Shown here: positions 38,428-63,960 of the stretch, piece after piece | Numbering within the stretch: the first letter of the stretch is position 1 | Layout: each line of letters begins with the position of its first letter | Position numbers and translations under genes: made by a program | Assembly (NCBI GenBank): GCA_963514005.1 | Contig: OY740787.1 | Span: forward strand, 69,440,001-69,504,000 | DNA from: Raja brachyura | Lineage: Eukaryota | Length of the DNA stretch: 64,000 nucleotides | Direction: 5' to 3' | Notes under the pieces: generated by a model | Seen by the model: only the letters and a program-made list of their open reading frames with translations | What the model was told of the DNA's origin: nothing | The model's database searches: none

Positions 38428-41387
38428 ATGCTATTCGATAAGGGTGTCAAGACCCTGTCATTTCAAAATAGCGAGATGCAAAAAACAACTTATTATGACA
38501 ACTCTGGAATATTTAGTGGTTACTCTTACCAAAAATCAAATACATACAACTACAGCTCTGGTCATCAAACCTACCCACCACCATCGGTTGATAATGATTA
38601 TCAGAACTCAACATGCCCAGTTCAGACAGCCAGTGCCAGAGCCCCAGCCCATAAGACCACTGATATCAATGGCAGTTGTATGAGAACAAGTAGCAATCAA
38701 GGCACTGCCCAAATTCCAAGCATTAGTGAGCCACAACAACCACCTCCTTTGCCACCCTCGCCAAATGGAAGCAACACTGCGACTCAGAAAAGAACCAAGT
38801 CCATTCCAAATTCTTCCAGCGGTCCGCCTGCTACCCTGACCAAGCAAATCTTCCCATGGATGAAAGAATCTCGTCAAAATACCAAGCAGAAAAACAACTG
38901 CACAGTTGCAGGTATCTTTCAGCAGTTTGTGCTTTTCTCAGCTCTAATCTGCATGAAGCTTCTTAAAAATGGGGATGTTTGTCAAAGAATGTCACACATG
39001 GGTGGGAGTAGCTTGCCAAAAATGTCACATGGAGGTGAGAGCATTTTCCTTCCATGTTGCAAGCAATTGTTGAAAAGGGTAAAAGAATCATCCAGTTTTT
39101 TAATCAACATTGTACATATTTTTTGTATTTAGTAATCTATTTCTTTCAGTAAGGAGGGCCCCAAACTAAGATTCAGTTGAATAAATAGCATATGCTGATA
39201 TAATTAACTGAGAATGTAGATTGGCAGGAACTTACAAGAACATGTAAATGTTCCTGTTTTGTTGTCAAACATTGCATGGTGACATTCTACTTTGTGCAAT
39301 GCTTGGAAATGACTCAAATAATTCCTCTAACAAAATATATAAATGGAAGGATGTAACTTTTATTAGTTTTATATCTCCATCAATTTGAACAAATGTTAAC
39401 ATCTTACACTTACACTGATTCAGAATGGCTGAAAATTCAGAAGGTTGAAAGCATTTGACCTAGCCAGAGTTAAATATATGCTTGCACTGGAAAACATAGT
39501 TCTTGTCCAAATTAAATTCTAAAGAGAAGCCTCATTTGGTATCACTGTGCTTTAAGTGACAATAATTATATATGGTTTGATATATAGAATAAAATAAAAT
39601 ACACATCTAGACTACTGGTCATTGCATCATTGCATCATACTTGCAATTGCAACTAACTTTTACTAACCAAACTATCCATAAAAAGGACCTTTCATTTCTC
39701 TACATATTATTTTCTTTGGAGTGGATTAATGAGTTAACCCCAGTTTTCTGAAGAAGGGTCTCGACCCATTCCTTCTCTCCAGAGTTGCTGCATGTCCCGC
39801 TGAGTTACACCAGCTTTTTGTGTCTATTTTCAGACGGAATATATGCAAGCTGGAACAATATGGTAGCCTTATTCAGCAATATTCATGGTATTTTCTTAAG
39901 TGGCTATTCTCATAAAGATTAATTCTTGTGAAAGTCAAATTTTGAGATTTTAATGACATTGCTGGCAGAATCTCCCAAAATTGCATTTGGAATTTGGTGC
40001 AAATATTAATGAAGTTGAACAATTTGCATTTATAGAATGCACTCTGCACTGGGCCCAAGATAGTCCAAAGTTATTCACACTTATGGAATACTGTAGGACT
40101 GTTGCAATTTACTATATTTATAATGTGAGGTCATTATTATACTTCTAGATAGTCTACTCTGGCAAAATGAAGTAGTTTAGAGGAGAAAAGACAAGTTTTA
40201 TTCTGAATATATTAGTTTTAAGTTGGAATAACTATATTGCAGAACTTATCGTTTAATTTACTTTAGTTTAGTTTAGTTTATTATTGCTACCTGTACAAAG
40301 GTACAATACCTGTTTTTTCCCCCTGACCATATTAGTTTCAAGTTAGAGCAACTATGTTGCAGAGTTCTTAGTTTAGTTTACTTTACATTACTTTATTTTG
40401 CTTTAGTTTAATTGACTTTATTATTGCCACGTGTACCAAGGTACAGTGGAAAGCTTTTATGTTGCGTGCTACCAAGTCAATGAAAACCTCTATGTGATTA
40501 CAATCGAGCCAACCACAGTGTACAGATAGAGGATAAAGGATATATCATTTAGTGCACGATAAATTCCAATAAAGTTCTCTATGGAAAATGCATGTATGTA
40601 TATTTATGTACAGTTATTAATATATTTTCATCCTGTAGGAGACAATTGTGAGGATAAAAGCCCACCGGGTCCAGCTTCCAAGAGAGTCCGCACTGCCTAC
40701 ACCAGTGCACAATTGGTTGAACTGGAAAAGGAGTTTCATTTTAATCGTTACTTGTGTCGCCCTCGCCGAGTTGAAATGGCAAATTTATTAAATCTAACTG
40801 AACGTCAGATAAAGATTTGGTTCCAGAACCGAAGAATGAAGTACAAAAAAGATCAAAAGGCCAAAGGGATCATGCACTCACCCATTGGACAGTCTCCAGA
40901 CAGAAGTCCTCTTTTAAATGCTCCAAATAATATTGGATTCTCAAACCAGCTCACCACTGTCAACAGTTTAAATTATGAAACTCATTCTCCAACATCATTC
41001 ACCAAATCTCAGCAAAATATGTATGGCTTGGCTGCTTACACAGCACCTCTCAATAGCTGCTTACCACAGCAGAAAAGGTACCCAGGCACAGAGTATGACC
41101 ATCATACTATACAGGGCAATGGTAGCTTTGCCAACCATAATTTGCAAGGCAGCCCTGTGTATGTAGGAGGAAACTTTGTTGATTCAATGCCAGCTTCTGG
41201 GCCAATGTTCAACCTTAGCCATCTTCCTCATCCTTCATCAGCCACTGTGGACTATAACTGCGCTGCTCAAATAGCAGGCAATCACCACCATGGACCATGC
41301 GATCCTCATCCCACTTACACGGATCTGACTACTCATCACACAGCTCAGGGAAGAATTCAAGAAGCACCCAAATTAACGCATCTGTAA
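38428..41387 (+). CDS. hoxd3: Homeobox protein Hox-D3; exon 38428-38911 (alternative ATG 38476), exon 40639-41387, about 410 aa
   Basis: [27 protein letters not shown] (HoxD3-type 16-aa extension), [13 protein letters not shown] hexapeptide, [67 protein letters not shown], and C-terminal [13 protein letters not shown]. The 1233 nt spliced CDS is in frame. Confidence 0.96.
39746..39833 (+). mobile_element. Penelope-type terminal-repeat fragment in the HoxD3 intron, with a 12-nt deletion in the hammerhead core
   Basis: Aligns by eye to the copy at 59841-59936 (CTGAAGAAGGGTC..GACCC..ATTCCTTCTCTCCAGAG..TGTGTCTAT) but lacks GAAACGTCACCC. Confidence 0.75.
40250..40570 (-). mobile_element. 3' end of a LINE-like retroelement with (TAAAC)n tail, partly duplicated
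   Basis: (GTTTA)n followed by TTTATTATTGCCACGTGTACCAAGGTACAGTG...GATTACAATCGAGCC. A related TTTATTGCCATATGTACCTCGGTGCAGTGAAA occurs at about 58542. The family assignment is from memory only. Confidence 0.55.
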
Positions 41388-51925: not shown

Positions 51926-52020
51926 CCGTACGATGAAGGGCCGCAACCTGAAACGTCGACTATCGATTTCGTCCACAGATGCTGTCTGGCCAGTTGAATT
52001 CCTCCAGCGATTTGCTTCTG
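51926..52020 (+). mobile_element. Diverged Penelope-type terminal repeat with degenerate hammerhead motif
   Basis: CGATGA-AGG-GCCGCAA-CCT-GAAACGTCGAC...TCCACAGATGCTG...TCCTCCAGC is related to the family at 59841. Confidence 0.6.
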
Positions 52021-52854
52021 CTCAATACTGTTCAGGCAGGTGAGCAAAAAGGAAGCTCTTAACCTACTTCAGTCTCTTCTTTATATAATTACATATTATA
52101 CCTATTTCAGTTTTGATGCAATTTTGCATCTTTTAGAGCCATTATTAAACATGAAGTTACCGTTTGGAAAGATAAGGACATCTACTTATTTGTTATATCT
52201 CCCGGAAGAAAGTTAATTGGTTTCTCTACGTGTTTGAAAAGCAGCGTTAGGAATCGCAAACTCTCGATCTACGGGATAATCCGACATAATTTGGTCGTTT
52301 TAAACGCCCCTTTAACTACTCCCTAAAACCATTCCCAAACAGATCTGATATGCATTACTCTGAAGTAAAGCAGCGCATAGCAGAGAAAAAGGCTTTAAAA
52401 ATATATAACCTAGTTGCACCGCGTTGCAGAACGGGACCCTGCCAGGAAAACCTGAAACTGTTTAAACGGCCTTTAGACGTATTCAGTCATTGATTTGTTT
52501 GTGATGTAACTATAGTAACTCAGTCCGTGACTCTGTCATGATTGCACCCCCTATTTTGATGATCGCCCTGCCATAAAACAAGTGCTAGCAGCAAAGGAAG
52601 GGAGCGCCTTTACGCCGTGTGCGCCACCATCGCCCTCTCCTTGCTGTGCATCGCTAACACGCGTCTACGACCCCAGGTAACAGCGAGCACTTACCTCTCG
52701 GAGCATCGACCGTTGCATGGTCTTTGCACTGCGGACGTCTCTGCGCGCTGTGCTGATGATGTGATCCTAATGGAAGATGAGCGCAATGAAGGGTCCGCTC
52801 CTCTCGGAGATAAGCGGGGACCTCCGACCGCCATGGAATAGCGCTGCTAGTGGT

Positions 52855-57255: not shown

Positions 57256-57779
57256 CTGGAAAAAAAAAACACCAAATCGATCCTTGGTCTTCTTTGGTTC
57301 CCATTGTGATCACAATCTCTGCCCTTTTTTTCTTTCAAATATAAACAGCACGAAATATAGTCGTGTATTTATCTAATCGAGAAAAAACGAGTTTAATATT
57401 CGGGAGCATCTTTAAATTAAGGTGACGCGTACTTCTTATCTTTAAATAGACTCCAAAGGTCAGAGTTCACCGTGGCACTGCATAAATGAATATTTAACCT
57501 AACTTTATGGCTGACGTACAATTAATATGCCGGCAATTCGTTGCGTTCGTGGAAAATTCAAGGGCGTGTCAGCCATGGACTATTCGCTGATGTCGATTAA
57601 TTTTGAGCATTAAACCCCCATGATAAAACATTTATCAAAATGACAGTGCACCATGCTGTACCTCTAAAACACCAAAAAACAAACAGTATATTGAAAATGT
57701 GAGGGTACACAAAATGTGATTTTCGCTGCCGGACATTGAGGGGCTGAGTCCGATGGGGTCTCCCCTTAAACAGGGAATG

Positions 57780-58085
57780 TATATCACCGGAGATAGACAC
57801 AAAAAGCTGGAGTAACTCAGCGGGGCAAGCAGCATCTCTGGAGAGAAGGAATTGGTGATGTTTCGGGTCGAGTGACGTTCGGGTTCGATGACGTTCATAT
57901 CACCCTATGGGCCACAAGCGCAGTCTGTCCACAGATAGGTGCGAACACTCCCGTGTATGAAGAAGGGGTTCGACCCGAAAAATCACCTCTTTTTTTCTCC
58001 AGATACGCTGCCTGACCCGCTTGGTTACTCCAGCACTTTGTGTCTATCTCCGGTGATATACCAGCATCTGCAGTTCTTTTCTACA
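57780..58085. mobile_element. Inverted pair of Penelope-type terminal repeats (- copy 57780-57872, + copy 57957-58085)
   Basis: A perfect 24-bp inverted repeat, TATATCACCGGAGATAGACACAAA (57780-57803) with 58037-58060. Same family as 59841. Confidence 0.75.
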
Positions 58086-58663
58086 CCACTGAGTATGATA
58101 TTACCGAATGCATGGACTGAGAATGTATGAAGAGTTTTTTGCACCGTTTTTCTTGTGTATTTTTTAAAAATTTGGAATAAAGTCTATTTTGGTGGGAAAA
58201 AAAGATAATATTAAGTTTGTTGCAACTGCTTCCTATCACCCAAAGATATGAAGAACGTGTTTCAGTCAGCGCTGCAGGGAAACCAATGTTTCTGCGAAAT
58301 GTACTGCTGACAAAACTAATGCAATAAAGAAGCCCTTCGGCACCGACAGGATTGGCGCAGCGATGATAACATCATTCCGTGGCAGCCCTGCTCCTTCTTG
58401 TGTCGAGTTTATCACTTTGCCCTGGAAACATGTAATGAATATAAAGATGATCCGCAAATTCAACTGTCCACCCTTTGTCATTTCTGCCACCCACAGCACT
58501 AGGACAACGAGTACATCTGATGATGATGATGATGGTGATACTTTATTGCCATATGTACCTCGGTGCAGTGAAATGCTTTGCTTATTTCCTCTACCTTCGG
58601 TATCCCGAAGGGACCTTTCCTTCAACTGCAACGGAGTGCGTTCTTGCTGCACCTGGCCTTCCA

Positions 58664-58720
58664 GTGGCACTAACCCTTATATGCAGGAGATGGAACACCT
58701 GCCATCTTACATCCTGACTT
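58664..58720 (+). mobile_element. Degenerate Penelope-like ORF fragment (Cys-rich linker)
   Basis: Frameshifted GT.P / CRRWNTCHLTS resembles the recalled GTFPCNRRRCNTCPYTS zinc-finger linker between RT and GIY-YIG. Confidence 0.35.
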
Positions 58721-58924
58721 TCCATCGTCAATGCTAAATATTACTGCAAAGTGATCAAGGTTTTTCCGCCGCTTGTAGCACCTTCGATTTCGTGTCCCTT
58801 GATATAATCAGGAAGAATAAACACCGTGCGGATTACCGCAGACCCTTTGCTAGAACAGCACACCAAGCTCTCTGTCCACAACCACGTACACTGTTCCCAC
58901 GAAACTGAATTTAAGTGCCATGAA

Positions 58925-59200: not shown

Positions 59201-59767
59201 CCCCCGATTTAAAGGGGGAGGGGGAGGGGGAGAGGCCTCATAATTTTGGACGACCCAATTATTTCTCCGCACAGCGTTCAACGCTGCAAGGAATATAAAA
59301 CCCGCCAAACTCAATTCCCTTCAAAGTTGGAACCGTGCATCCCAGACGTAACTTCTTCAAGTACAGCACCTCACCTTTCCATTAGGCACTTCTGCACTGT
59401 TCACTGAATGTAACCTTTCGGGTTAACAGCTGCATACATTGTTCTTCAGCTAATAATAATTAGAGATGATTCCGCTTTCCATTCACCTTTCGTCTCTTTA
59501 AGCTTTTGCTTTGACTGACCCTTTAAAAAAATGTCTGCCTTGGTCTTCCATCACACGCCTTCTCTTTATAATTTGTTTAATGTTATCCTTCTTAGCGTCC
59601 TCACTTGCTTAAAAGTTATTATATCTATTACAGTCTCCAGTTCTTATGAACGGCCATTAACCCAGTACATTAATTTTGTTTCCCCTTCCATGACACTGGC
59701 TGACCGCTTAACATTCAGAGCATTGTCTGTATTTGCGTTTTATAAACACAGCTAAAAATGAAACCAA

Positions 59768-59936
59768 TGTGTAGGAAGGAACTGCAGGCTGGTTTACACC
59801 GAGGATAGACACTAATTTCTGGAGTAACAGCGGGGCAGGTGTCTGAAGAAGGGTCTTGACCCGAAACGTCACCCATTCCTTCTCTCCAGAGATGCTGCCT
59901 GTCTCGCTGAGATATTCCAGCATGTTGTGTCTATCT
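59768..59936. mobile_element. Inverted pair of Penelope-type terminal repeats (- 59768-59839, + 59841-59936)
   Basis: GATAGACAC...GGAGTAAC on the left mirrors TTCCAGC...GTGTCTATC on the right. Confidence 0.75.
59838..59876 (+). ncRNA. Minimal type I hammerhead ribozyme motif (complete core)
   Basis: CTGAAGA (59843-59849), extra A, stem II GGGTC-TT-GACCC, GAAA (59863-59866), then CGTC with predicted cleavage after GUC at 59870. Stem I is only marginal. Confidence 0.55.
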
Positions 59937-60881
59937 AAAAATGAAAGCATTTGCTTGTTCTGGTAGCACCCCATAACTCTTGCTCCGAGAACGAAGACTC
60001 GGATCTTCTTGAGTGCATGTTGTTTAAACATGCAAATTATCCATGTGACACTTCTAGGCGAATAACTCTCGCCATTGGCTTGGCCTGATATTTATCTGAG
60101 TATAATTATTTGATTAGGGCGCTCCATGAATAATTATTTATTTAACTGTTGCTCCTTCACGACTTATTTCACTCACTGTAACTTTTACAGGAATGACATG
60201 AAAGTCAACATTGATACAGGAAATAAATCTTAAACACAGTTCCAAAATGTTATATGTAGGAAGGAACTGCAGATGCTGATTATATATTTAAATGTAAATA
60301 GTTTAGAAATTATTTGACATTGATACTTCTTGACCTGGTAAGAGGCAAGCCTAGTAAATACAGAATTGTATATCCATTACTCCATGTGGAGGACCTGCTG
60401 TTCTTAATCGAGCGATGTAACATTAATTATTCGAGCAGTCTTACTGCGTAAATATGGAACCTGTGCGACAAGAATCGTGGTAACATTGTCCTACAACTGA
60501 GAAGAGACGATTATAAACTGTATCTTCGGCATGGTTCCTTCGTTAAATATGCTTGATGTTATTGAGATCCGGAAAACAAGTCGCGCAATCTTGGATACAT
60601 TTGCGTTGAAATTAAGATTAGTTAAGAAACAATAGTTTCTTAGGAAATAATTTAAATGTATATCTTATGTTTTGTTTGCTCGTTGCATTATATTTTGTTT
60701 GCTCATTGCTCATTATTTTGTAGCATTGCATTTGAAATTCGAAATCTGTTCGCGTAAAATCTTCAAGCCATGTTTAGATATGGGCGATCATTAGAGATCT
60801 GGCAATTACAATGGAAAAAAAGAACTTAATATAGGTATGACCATTCCCTTTAGCGGGACAAGTTGCGAAGCGTTTACGTAA

Positions 60882-60966
60882 AGATAGACACATAAAGCTG
60901 GAGTAACTCAGCGGGACACGCAGCATCTCTGGAGAGAAGGATGGGTGACGTTTCAGGTCGAGACCC
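60882..60966 (-). mobile_element. Penelope-type terminal repeat copy, truncated within the hammerhead
   Basis: AGATAGACACATAAAGCTGGAGTAACTCAGCGGG...GGGTGACGTTTCAGGTCGAGACCC. A further 25-nt fragment lies at 60254-60278. Confidence 0.75.
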
Positions 60967-61933: not shown

Positions 61934-63312
61934 GACCAAACCTACAGAAAAAACAATACAATAGATTTGCAGTAGAAATGGCGGTTATGTAATCGCGAAT
62001 CCCAGTCCACTATGAAGAAGATTTTGCAATCAATACATTTCATATTTTCTTGAACAAATTGTTTCTTTGGGAAATCGAAAGCATCTACATTATTCGGAGC
62101 AAAGATAACTGAAGATTCATTCTACTTGCCATTTTATAGTAGGATTTAAATCACCTTTCCCTTTCTTTTGTACGCAAGAGGATTTCATGTTTGAGTAAAT
62201 ATATTTCCCTGGAATATCGATCTACAAATAACCAGGAAACCAGAATTTATACTTATTTGACTCGACAGCTATTAAAATTGGTTCACAAATTATTTTGAAT
62301 TATGTTGCCTGTCATTGACATGGTGCAATACCAAACACTATCAAACTATGTCGGGGAAGTCTATATTTGGCGAGAATGTAATCGAGCTCTCTTTTCTGAG
62401 GCATGTTGAGCACTTACTAGTTAAATAGGCAAGATGCATTAACCATCAATTCTCATTTCACTTCTCATCTATTCTCTGAGAACAGTAATATTTTTGGGTA
62501 GAAGAGGACTGGTTAACGCACTTGGCTGGAGACTGACCGACCTCTGACAGTCTTGTTGAAATTCAGTGCTGACAGAATAAATGAATTTGTCAGTGTCAGC
62601 GCCCTAAGTGAGTTTGGTCAGTCAGTATCTAGTAACTAGTTAACGTGGGCCTGCGGCACAGAACTCTCCAGTTCGGTACGAATTGACAGCTTCTCTCGGA
62701 GAAGCCACATATCTGGTGTGGTAAATTGGAAAACAAATCACGTCAGCGTAACAGCGCACGATGTTAGGACCAAATAGAACTGAGCTTTCTACACGACCTG
62801 GAAGTGTTTGATGATGACACCGGACGCCTGAAGTGAAATCAATTCAATATCCCAGCAATGAGGCGCAATTCCAAGATCCTATTGATATCTGCGTTTGTTA
62901 ATCGCTGAAATAAATGTAATTTTTCGGAGCTTACATTTTATTTATTGATGTAAATACGCGGTTGTTTTACGCTGTTCATCAAATATGAGTGTTCCAATTC
63001 TAAGTTATAATTTGAACACCACTTTTTTTAAATTATTATCGCCAATGAATCCCTTTAGAATTTTCCAAATCGGTCCCAGATATTAATTATAATTTCTCTA
63101 TAATGGTCTTAACTACTATTTCATTTTAGGTCCACGATGAATCAAAAGTTTGGTGAAATGTACGAATTGGAAGATGGTTCATGGAAATTATAGAATTAAA
63201 TATGATGTGTGTTACAGACTAGCAAATGCGTGTATTCGTGGTCGAGCAGGTTGTCCAAGTTAAATTGTTAGTTCTACAATTAATCATTTTTACATCAGAG
63301 CTTCACGAATTT

Positions 63313-63410
63313 GAAGATAGGCACAAAGTGCTGGAGTAACACAGCGGCTCAGATGGCATCTCTGGAGAGAAGGGATGGGTGACGTTTCGGGTCGAGATCC
63401 TACTCCAGAC
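63313..63410 (-). mobile_element. Penelope-type terminal repeat copy, degenerate hammerhead
   Basis: Same family. The minus strand reads CTGGAGT...GACCCGAAACGTC (CUGANGA mutated). Confidence 0.72.
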
Positions 63411-63601
63411 TCTCTGCCGCGACCCCCCACCCCTCCGTTTTCTTTTCTCAATCATGAGAGCTCTTCCACAAAAAAATGCAGCTGGGGCTGTCGTGACTGA
63501 ATTCTCTGACCCCCCCCCCCCCCCCCCCCCATCCAATAAAGGACGCTTGTGGTCATGTATTGGTCGTAATAGTTTTGCGTAGTGGGTCTGTCAATTGTTT
63601 G

Positions 63602-63810
63602 GACACAAAGTGCGAGGGTAACTCAGCGGGTTTGGCACAATCTCTGGAAAAAAAGAATGGGTGATGCTTCGGGTCGGGACCCATCTTCAGAACCGAAACG
63701 TCACCCGTTCTTTTTCTCCAGAGATGTTCCCGGACTAGCTGAGTTACTTCAGCACTTTGTGTCTATCTTTGGTATGAACCAGCATCTGCAGTATTTTTTT
63801 TTCTCTACAG
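63602..63810. mobile_element. Inverted pair of Penelope-type terminal repeats (- 63602-63691, + 63693-63810)
   Basis: GACACAAAGTGC...GGGTCGGGACCCATCTTCAG is directly followed by CCGAAACGTCACCC...GCACTTTGTGTC. Confidence 0.75.
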
Positions 63811-63869
63811 CTTATCAATTGTTTGATACGTCGGGTTTAAATACTTAGGTGGAGATTCTATCTTGCAAA

Positions 63870-63960
63870 AGATAGACACAAAATATTGGAGTAACTCAGC
63901 GGGTCAGACAGCATCACTCGAGAAAAGGAATAGGTGACGTTTCGGGTCGAGACCCTTCTT
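63870..63960 (-). mobile_element. Penelope-type terminal repeat copy truncated at the CUGA of the hammerhead
   Basis: GATAGACACAAAA...GGTGACGTTTCGGGTCGAGACCCTTCTT. Confidence 0.75.

What the first reader, a model, noticed from the sequence alone, without database searches (positions are those of the whole stretch)
59838..59876. Penelope-type repeat family carrying a minimal hammerhead ribozyme, scattered around the 3' end of the cluster
Seen: about a dozen related segments of roughly 90-130 bp (39746, 51926, 57780/57957, 59768/59841, 60254, 60882, 63313, 63602/63693, 63870). The copy at 59843 has CTGAAGA-A-GGGTC TT GACCC-GAAA-CGTC, i.e. CUGANGA, stem II, GAAA and a GUC cleavage triplet with a tiny palindromic helix III (ACGT). 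Known: Penelope-like retroelements carry such minimal type I hammerheads in their pseudo-LTRs, and these are proposed to cleave as dimers. An extra A after A9 occurs in some natural hammerheads. A Cys-linker ORF scrap at 58664 supports Penelope identity. Only this copy has a complete core, and its stem I is weak, so activity is unproven.
Basis: partly seen in the sequence, partly recalled or inferred. Interest (0 to 1): 0.72.

Follow-up and report, generated by a model that had tools for sequence, protein, structure and literature searches.

The report
Penelope retrotransposon hammerhead, million short copies
The motif is a real minimal hammerhead-ribozyme sequence in one of roughly a million short, decaying copies of a Penelope-like jumping gene, a known kind of element; this copy is likely inert, and the short copies likely record the uncut, capped front end of the element's RNA.

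Summary
Confirmed, and mostly a known kind. The motif at 59843-59870 is a complete minimal type I hammerhead core. It lies in a 173-bp insertion (inverted arm plus forward arm) with a 12-bp target duplication, 3' of HoxD1. Longer copies elsewhere run into RT + Cys linker + GIY-YIG ORFs; four intact pLTR-ORF-pLTR elements were found (Neptune type). The family has about 0.37 copies/kb (about 1 million), is depleted inside the Hox cluster, and decays at CpGs. The core is unchanged between subfamilies (0/32 differences, against 20/90 in the tail). Stem I is only 2 bp family-wide, and stem II shows no compensatory changes. Cleavage is untested, and this copy has no intact dimer partner in the window. 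The added observation: copy 5' ends pile up at an initiator-like YCAGTCT 3 nt before the core (3,806 exact matches), not at the cut site (289; controls 94 and 245), often with a non-templated G. Short copies therefore likely come from the uncut, capped 5' end of the mRNA, primed internally in the tail. Earlier scan notes found the same hammerhead/Penelope link in shark genomes.

The parts
59843..59870 (+). Minimal type I hammerhead core: CUGAAGA, extra A, stem II (GGGU/ACCC with a 4-nt loop), GAAA, palindromic A-CG-U helix III, C17; predicted cut after 59870
59841..59842 (+). 5' strand of the 2-bp stem I (GT, pairs with AC at 59871-72) and 5' end of the forward arm, 1 nt downstream of the inferred transcription start (the A of YCAGTCT, absent in this copy)
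59871..59936 (+). pLTR tail of the forward arm, ending at the shorter of the two usual family 3' ends (inferred RT start site)
59768..59840 (-). Inverted arm (tail only, running to the longer 3' end), the head-to-head structure typical of PLE insertions
   Evidence: 78 such pairs among 441 hits
59752..59763 (+). Target-site duplication, left copy (12 bp, A-rich), followed by 4 extra bases at 59764-67
59935..59946 (+). Target-site duplication, right copy (shares 2 nt with the element end)
58578..58716 (+). Old degraded fragment of the PLE Cys-linker region; a separate insertion
39742..39834 (+). Family copy with a 12-nt deletion through GAAA and the cut site
51929..52025 (+). Divergent older relative with a decayed core
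57779..57872 (-). Family copy, arm of an inverted pair, lacks the 5' half of the core
57955..58076 (+). Family copy, arm of an inverted pair, core mutated
60250..60276 (-). 27-nt piece of the tail end
60873..60966 (-). Family copy starting in stem II
63305..63411 (-). Family copy, core mutated
63600..63691 (-). Family copy, arm of an inverted pair, GAAA mutated
63690..63793 (+). Family copy, arm of an inverted pair, lacks the 5' half of the core
63858..63960 (-). Family copy lacking the first bases of CUGANGA

Best explanation
This is one short, likely inert insertion of the pseudo-LTR and tail of a Penelope-like retrotransposon (Neptune type by its Cys linker), and it carries the family's conserved minimal hammerhead motif. 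Shown: the family link to RT + GIY-YIG ORFs, the copy number, the inverted arm and target duplication, the 2-bp stem I, and the pile-up of copy 5' ends at the A of YCAGTCT, 3 nt before the core. Inferred mechanism: the element is transcribed from an initiator in its pLTR, so the capped RNA begins AGU-CUGAAGA. The encoded protein nicks A/T-rich DNA and starts reverse transcription at one of two sites inside the tail. Priming in the 5' pLTR gives only about 95-130 nt of cDNA that runs off the capped end and often gains a G; these are the bulk of the short copies. Priming in the 3' pLTR gives the longer copies with UTR and ORF. The templates were mostly uncut RNA. Any cleavage would need a dimer through the ACGU palindrome and probably the element's protein, and would remove a 31-nt leader. 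At this locus it is unlikely: there is no intact partner in the window, and the predicted fold disrupts stem II.
For: Family link: the 30 loci carry UTR + core, and many run into Cys linker, GIY-YIG and a conserved C-terminus, two into the YIDD region. L135, L137, L139 and L142 have a pLTR on both sides of a long ORF (1203 codons in three, 1135 in L142); P0001 hits RVT_1 (E=3e-4) and GIY-YIG (E=1.5e-3), both below Pfam cut-offs. The window's tail type continues into the same post-tail sequence as the intact family. Copy number: 441 hits in 118 arbitrary 10-kb stretches, 0.37/kb. Decay: in 170 anchored copies most core positions are 88-99% conserved, but CpG positions only 69-84% (the anchoring itself demands a near-intact 5' core). 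Selection on the element: 0/32 differences in the core against 20/90 in the tail (p=0.002) and 21/154 in the UTR (p=0.03), young element versus subfamily majority. 5' ends: 203 of 441 hits start at model positions 230-239 and 7 of 441 at 264-268, the cut site. Exact genome counts of two foreign bases followed by element: 3,806 at the A of CAGT, 289 at the cut site, 245 at +3, 94 at -4. The base before AGTCTG is G in 56 of the first 100 listed (hand count; 28% expected, p=4e-9). Among 21 G-type junctions, 5 have a 6-13 nt target duplication followed by one G found in neither target nor element. 3' ends: 17 of those 21 end at L139 3530-3543 or 3569-3572, like the two internal RT starts of Anolis Poseidon, whose hammerhead needs the protein and is not needed for insertion in vitro (PMC11167929). 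Window copy: stem II pairing probability 0.0 in the 181-nt context.
Against: There are no usable RNA data. The four runs laid were contigs; three were only guessed to be RNA and one was of unknown kind, so no start, cap or cut could be seen. The breakpoint patterns differ in scope: one search covers all subfamilies with G after the cut (about 49 of 170 copies, against 33 of 170 for the young type), so the true excess over the cut site is nearer 9-fold than 13-fold, and some matches are re-amplified duplicates (3 of 21 share one flank). Part of the G excess comes from microhomology: 6 of 21 junctions carry an inverted arm and at least one G is target-templated; in the unbiased sample the excess was weak (11 of 24, p=0.046). 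RTs can add terminal bases without a cap (recalled). The cut-site count is 3-fold above one control, so a minor cleaved template is not excluded. Clade assignment rests on the linker motif; no tree was built.
Confidence: 0.7

Rival explanations
1. The conserved pyrimidine tract + YCAG|T is a 3' splice acceptor, and AAG|GTATGY 162 nt downstream is its donor. The hammerhead and tail then form a cassette exon; splicing would drop the whole ORF or back-splice a 162-nt circle and bring hammerheads together as dimers.
For: UTRs of different length and sequence nearly all end in a pyrimidine run + YCAG at position 2.1 of stem I. AAG|GTATGC is the best-scoring of 125 GT sites in the intact element (recalled donor frequencies); GTATGY follows the anchor in 21 of 41 stretches. 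One locus carries the exact junction in both arms. In D. virilis Penelope the intron ends at the 5' side of a 2-bp helix I (PMC4209133).
Against: Only 1 of 9 loci with a short post-tail-to-core junction is exact. No good donor lengthens stem I; the 3 sites that give 4 bp score below zero. cDNA of spliced RNA should run on into an upstream exon rather than stop at the A of CAG. No GT..AG joint among the 15 of 761 joints shown (inconclusive). The donor fits equally well as the end of a first exon after a pLTR start, as in Chlamys-3 (PMC8557442).
Confidence: 0.15
2. The hammerhead is catalytically dead in this lineage. The 32-nt core is kept as DNA promoter sequence (initiator plus a downstream ACGT element) or as a binding site for the element's protein.
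For: Stem I pairs 3 and 4 form in only 3 and 5 of 55 copies with native upstream sequence; no compensatory change in stem II. Predicted folds pair the core with the post-cut strand or the tail end, and predicted dimers form mainly through stem II. Penelope has a DPE-like RGACGTGY (PMC2377424); the ACGT here sits at +27 to +30.
Against: Every catalytic position, the extra base after A9, G10.1-C11.1 and the 15.2/16.2 palindrome match the published PLE motif (PMC4209133). Stem I pair 1 varies only between U-A and U-G (45 of 55 paired). The DPE match is only 5 of 8. The Anolis motif looks silent alone but cleaves with protein (PMC11167929).
Confidence: 0.25
3. The short copies are ordinary 5'-truncated 3' ends, or progeny of a few non-autonomous SINE-like masters. 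The shared 5' edge then reflects RT stalling or template switching at the core, or the masters' boundary, and not a transcription start.
For: Many junctions show microhomology or inverted arms. Starts spread over about 10 nt and also occur within stem II (11 of 29 young copies). Some short copies sit inside other repeats and were re-amplified. Internally deleted tandem derivatives exist.
Against: The same edge holds in five of six tail classes by majority and in long copies that run on into the ORF start (4 of 10 such loci start at L139 3435-3439). Single non-templated G after clean target duplications. RT stalls are expected at the 3' side of a structure, not at its 5' edge (inference).
Confidence: 0.2
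4. The copy has been co-opted as a self-cleaving or regulatory element for HoxD 3' transcripts.
For: It lies on the Hox coding strand about 5.7 kb after the HoxD1 homeobox and has the only complete core in the window. Copies are denser than average in the last 7 kb (10 against 2.6 expected).
Against: About 16 complete cores per 580 kb occur at random, so 1 in 64 kb is expected. 2-bp stem I, unfavourable fold, no intact partner; near-identical copies are widespread.
Confidence: 0.03

Closest known systems
Minimal hammerheads (min-HHR) in pLTRs of metazoan Penelope-like elements (PMC4209133; dimer cleavage reviewed in PMC6765202)
   Same: Type I core in both pLTRs, extra base between 9 and 10.1, G10.1-C11.1, palindromic 15.2/16.2, mostly solo copies, some in opposite-strand pairs.
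   Different: Stem I is 2 bp rather than 4-5 bp and stem II 4-5 bp rather than 7-8 bp (the S. mansoni values). The core is nearly invariant rather than highly variable. About 75,000 complete cores are extrapolated (16 per 580 kb), against about 4,000-9,000 reported for coelacanth and Xenopus.
D. virilis Penelope hammerhead variant (PMC4209133, PMC2377424)
   Same: 2-bp helix I, small palindromic helix III, an AG directly at the 5' side of helix I, promoter inside the pLTR.
   Different: Different clade. No bulge in helix II here. In the fly the AG is a proven intron end; here copy ends point to a transcription start instead.
Anolis Poseidon PAc (PMC11167929)
   Same: Two 3' end positions about 35 nt apart (the tail), A/T-rich target, uncut RNA as the main template.
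   Different: PAc's ORF starts inside the hammerhead; here the likely ATG is about 135 nt after the cut site and the protein has the Cys linker. A start site 3 nt before the core is not reported in the text read.
Neptune clade of PLEs (PMC8557442)
   Same: Single ORF with RT, CX2-5CxxC linker and C-terminal GIY-YIG; pLTRs, inverted 5' arms, tail.
   Different: Membership rests on the motif; no tree was built, and Nematis shares the linker.
Non-LTR retrozymes (bioRxiv 10.64898/2026.07.22.740005)
   Same: Short PLE-derived units with a type I hammerhead; 15 same-strand pairs within 400 nt among 441 hits.
   Different: The window copy is a solo insertion with an inverted arm, not a tandem array of complete hammerheads.

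Membership tests
Penelope-like elements (EN+) | Single ORF with RT and C-terminal GIY-YIG endonuclease | tested here: met
   P0001, 1203 aa stop to stop, YIDD and LIYIGET motifs; Pfam RVT_1 and GIY-YIG below cut-off; met by relatives, not by the window copy
Penelope-like elements (EN+) | ORF flanked by direct pseudo-LTRs | tested here: met
   L135, L137, L139, L142
Penelope-like elements (EN+) | Inverted 5' arm, optional 30-40 nt tail, target duplication | tested here: met
   Window copy has all three; 78 inverted pairs among 441 hits
Neptune clade | Cys linker CX2-5CxxC between RT and EN | tested here: met
   CNRKRCYTC in P0001 and CNRRRCNTC in older copies
Neptune clade | RT phylogeny groups with Neptune | not tested
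   No named reference RTs were fetched
PLE minimal type I hammerhead | CUGANGA ... GAAA ... UH core | tested here: met
PLE minimal type I hammerhead | Extra base between 9 and 10.1, G10.1-C11.1, palindromic 15.2/16.2 | tested here: met
   A in 97% of 170 copies; G-C in 131 of 170; ACGT
PLE minimal type I hammerhead | Helix I of 4-5 bp | tested here: not met
   2 bp in 70 of 93 descriptor hits; pairs 3 and 4 form in 3 and 5 of 55; the published fly variant also has 2 bp
PLE minimal type I hammerhead | Compensatory changes in stem II | tested here: not met
   Only one-sided changes among 170 copies; the stem is near-invariant, so the test has little power
PLE minimal type I hammerhead | Self-cleavage as a dimer or with protein | not testable with these tools
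   Needs in vitro work; the genomic footprint at the cut site is inconclusive
Non-LTR retrozyme | At least two consecutive tandem units with complete hammerheads | tested here: not met
   One complete core in 64 kb
tRNA-derived SINE or DNA transposon | Independent origin (tRNA head, or terminal inverted repeats of a DNA transposon) | tested here: not met
   No tRNA-like Rfam match in the window; the sequence is the pLTR of an RT-encoding element

The most novel reading that the evidence does not exclude
In this lineage the hammerhead core starts 3 nt after the cap of the retrotransposon's own mRNA. It would act as a protein- or dimer-gated decapping switch that cuts off a 31-nt capped leader, while uncut RNA primed in the 5' pLTR has seeded about a million 'strong-stop'-like copies, a few percent of the genome, that map the RNA's 5' end at base resolution.
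Probability: 0.2. Interest if true: 0.62.

Novelty: new member of a known kind. Interest (0 to 1): 0.35.

Why it matters
The hammerhead/Penelope link is published and this copy is probably a fossil, so the finding itself is ordinary. What adds value is the family. It has very young intact elements and about a million copies whose ends act as a record of the RNA templates. That record says the templates begin just before the hammerhead and are mostly uncut. The function of PLE hammerheads is still called unclear (PMC8557442), and this family gives a concrete, testable layout: start site, 31-nt leader, 2-bp stem I, two priming sites.

Tried and rejected
Rfam scan to E=10: no hammerhead model hit. 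Contig C358 repeats at about 6.7-kb spacing looked like tandem full-length elements but are duplicated stretches with identical flanks around a short copy. The GGTGT 5' flank in many top hits is query bias; it is rare in unbiased copies. A splice that repairs stem I: no good donor does so. A 122-nt intron from the donor into the ORF start: 0 genomic copies with that junction, and the tail ATG frame is closed in the window's subfamily. Whole-ORF or back-splice junction: 1 of 9 loci. RNA test: runs X1, X4, X2, X19 were contigs only, so uninformative for start, cut or splicing. Cut-site footprint: 289 against controls of 245 and 94, with inflation by tandem arrays and palindromic junctions at the cut site and at +3; inconclusive. 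tblastn and blastn did not detect the 58664 scrap; only nhmmer --max did. Pfam found nothing in three ORFs around 58250-58730. The bacterial promoter scan was irrelevant. Lunse et al. 2016 was not held. Searches for prior reports of a start site at the core or cap-derived G in PLE copies gave no such title in their listings; the library lacks most subscription papers, so this is weak.

Full report
1. Observation. The window is a Hox cluster on the + strand: six homeoboxes and mir-10 at 18595. I read them as HoxD8, 5, 4, 3, 2 and 1 of a cartilaginous fish; these names are recalled, not from a call. The motif is present as described. A strict minimal-hammerhead descriptor finds only 59843 in the window, and 3 of 100 shuffles give a hit. 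Twelve related segments exist. The copy is a complete insertion: 12-bp duplication (59752-63 and 59935-46), 4 extra bases, inverted arm 59768-59840, forward arm 59841-59936. The Cys-linker scrap at 58578-58716 is real but weak (13.0 bits against at most 7.1 in 30 shuffles) and not collinear with this copy.

2. What it is. Walking upstream from longer copies leads through a UTR into a GIY-YIG endonuclease, a Cys linker and an RT. A protein search found long open frames. Of 20 stretches fetched around such hits, four (L135, L137, L139, L142) have a pLTR on both sides of a long ORF, with the same core in each pLTR. P0001 hits RVT_1 and GIY-YIG below Pfam cut-offs. The linker fits the CX2-5CxxC motif given for Neptune (PMC8557442). 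The window's tail type continues into the same post-tail sequence as the intact family. In 118 arbitrary 10-kb stretches there were 441 hits, 0.37/kb, or about one million in 2.7 Gb; they covered 4% of the first 580 kb. The first 54.5 kb of the window hold 2 copies where 20 are expected (p=3e-7), and the last 7 kb hold 10.

3. State of the ribozyme motif. Between the young intact element and the majority of the window's subfamily, the 32-nt core has 0 differences, the tail 20 of 90 and the shared UTR 21 of 154. So the core is under selection in active elements. Individual copies decay at CpGs, including G12 (69% of 170). Against activity: stem I has 2 bp in 70 of 93 descriptor hits; pairs 3 and 4 form in 3 and 5 of 55 copies; stem II shows only one-sided changes. 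Predicted folds pair the core with downstream sequence, and the window copy's stem II has probability 0.0 in context. Published PLE motifs cleave weakly as dimers (PMC4209133) or only with the element's protein (PMC11167929).

4. Where copies begin. 203 of 441 hits start at the YCAGT just before the core and 7 at the cut site. Of 170 anchored copies, 115 lack pyrimidine-rich native upstream sequence; their match to CAGT falls 78, 72, 61, 38% from -1 to -4. Exact genome counts were 3,806 at the A of CAGT, 289 at the cut site, 245 at +3 and 94 at -4. The first pattern is about 1.5 times wider in subfamily scope. G precedes the A in 56 of the first 100 listed (hand count). I fetched 20 stretches around G-type hits, giving 21 junctions. 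Five have a 6-13 nt target duplication and then one G found in neither target nor element (one of the five was scored by the script as a terminal mismatch), one has three extra bases, six adjoin inverted arms, and the rest are unresolved or templated. YCAGTCT fits the initiator consensus YYANWYY, and an extra G is the expected trace of copying a cap; both points are recalled knowledge. 17 of the 21 copies end at two zones about 35 nt apart, as for the two internal RT starts in Anolis (PMC11167929).

5. Mechanism. Shown: family, structure, numbers and ends. Inferred: transcription starts 3 nt before the core; RT primes inside the tail; priming in the 5' pLTR yields 95-130-nt copies that end at the capped 5' end, and priming in the 3' pLTR yields long copies; templates are mostly uncut. 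This also explains why stem I is not kept longer, since only AGU precedes the core in the 5' copy. A strong donor-like AAG|GTATGY lies 164 nt after the inferred start (best of 125 GT sites), like the first-exon donors of Penelope and Chlamys-3 (PMC2377424, PMC8557442). The rival cassette-exon reading has one exact genomic junction among nine loci and does not repair stem I. RNA data were uninformative (contigs only; loose ends pile up before L139 3439-3441 in all 4 runs, which shows only that the homology boundary is shared).

6. Comparison and novelty. The PLE hammerhead was described in 2014, including fish Neptune elements, and earlier notes of this scan found it in shark genomes. This is a new member, closest in shape to the D. 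virilis variant. The start-site reading did not appear in my searches, but coverage is limited.

7. Papers seen. PMC4209133: parts 1-2 of 4 (abstract, results, discussion). PMC11167929: parts 1-2 of 4 (main text). bioRxiv 10.64898/2026.07.22.740005: part 1, passages, discussion. PMC8557442, PMC6765202, PMC2377424, PMC3846280: passages only. Lunse et al. 2016: reference listing and review summary only. No supplements were read; those of PMC4209133 and the preprint may hold a cartilaginous-fish motif.

8. Verdict. Real, correctly identified, a known kind, and probably inert at this locus. Interest 0.35, carried mainly by the 5'-end evidence.

Noticed in passing
window 700-54100: Six + strand homeoboxes, read as HoxD8, 5, 4, 3, 2, 1 (names recalled), with mir-10 at 18595-18666; the repeat family is about 10-fold depleted inside the cluster.
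   Followed up: partly
L156:1127-1599: Insertion whose two inverted arms both carry the exact donor-to-acceptor junction; possibly a copy of a spliced or back-spliced RNA.
   Followed up: partly
L207, L209, L212, L214, L217 around 1500-1750: Internally deleted tandem derivatives (tail, post-tail, 70-120 nt, next core): retrozyme-like units that could place two hammerheads in cis.
   Followed up: partly
L144:8945-9518: Tandem array of about 54-nt units made from the tail alone; 61-63-nt arrays starting near the cut site also appear on C1 and C2.
   Followed up: no
L178:1442: A young long copy starts exactly at the base after the predicted cut and runs into the ORF; a candidate copy of cleaved RNA.
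   Followed up: partly
window 51929-52025: Older relative whose strand after the cut reads GACTA; it may belong to a family with a longer stem I.
   Followed up: no
L139:4100-4980: The intact ORF has a long Pro/Ser/Ala-rich region (about 290 aa) between the conserved N-terminal block and the RT.
   Followed up: no
G000:C358:11000-59000: A several-kb unit holding a short copy is repeated at least six times with identical flanks; the unit was not identified.
   Followed up: no
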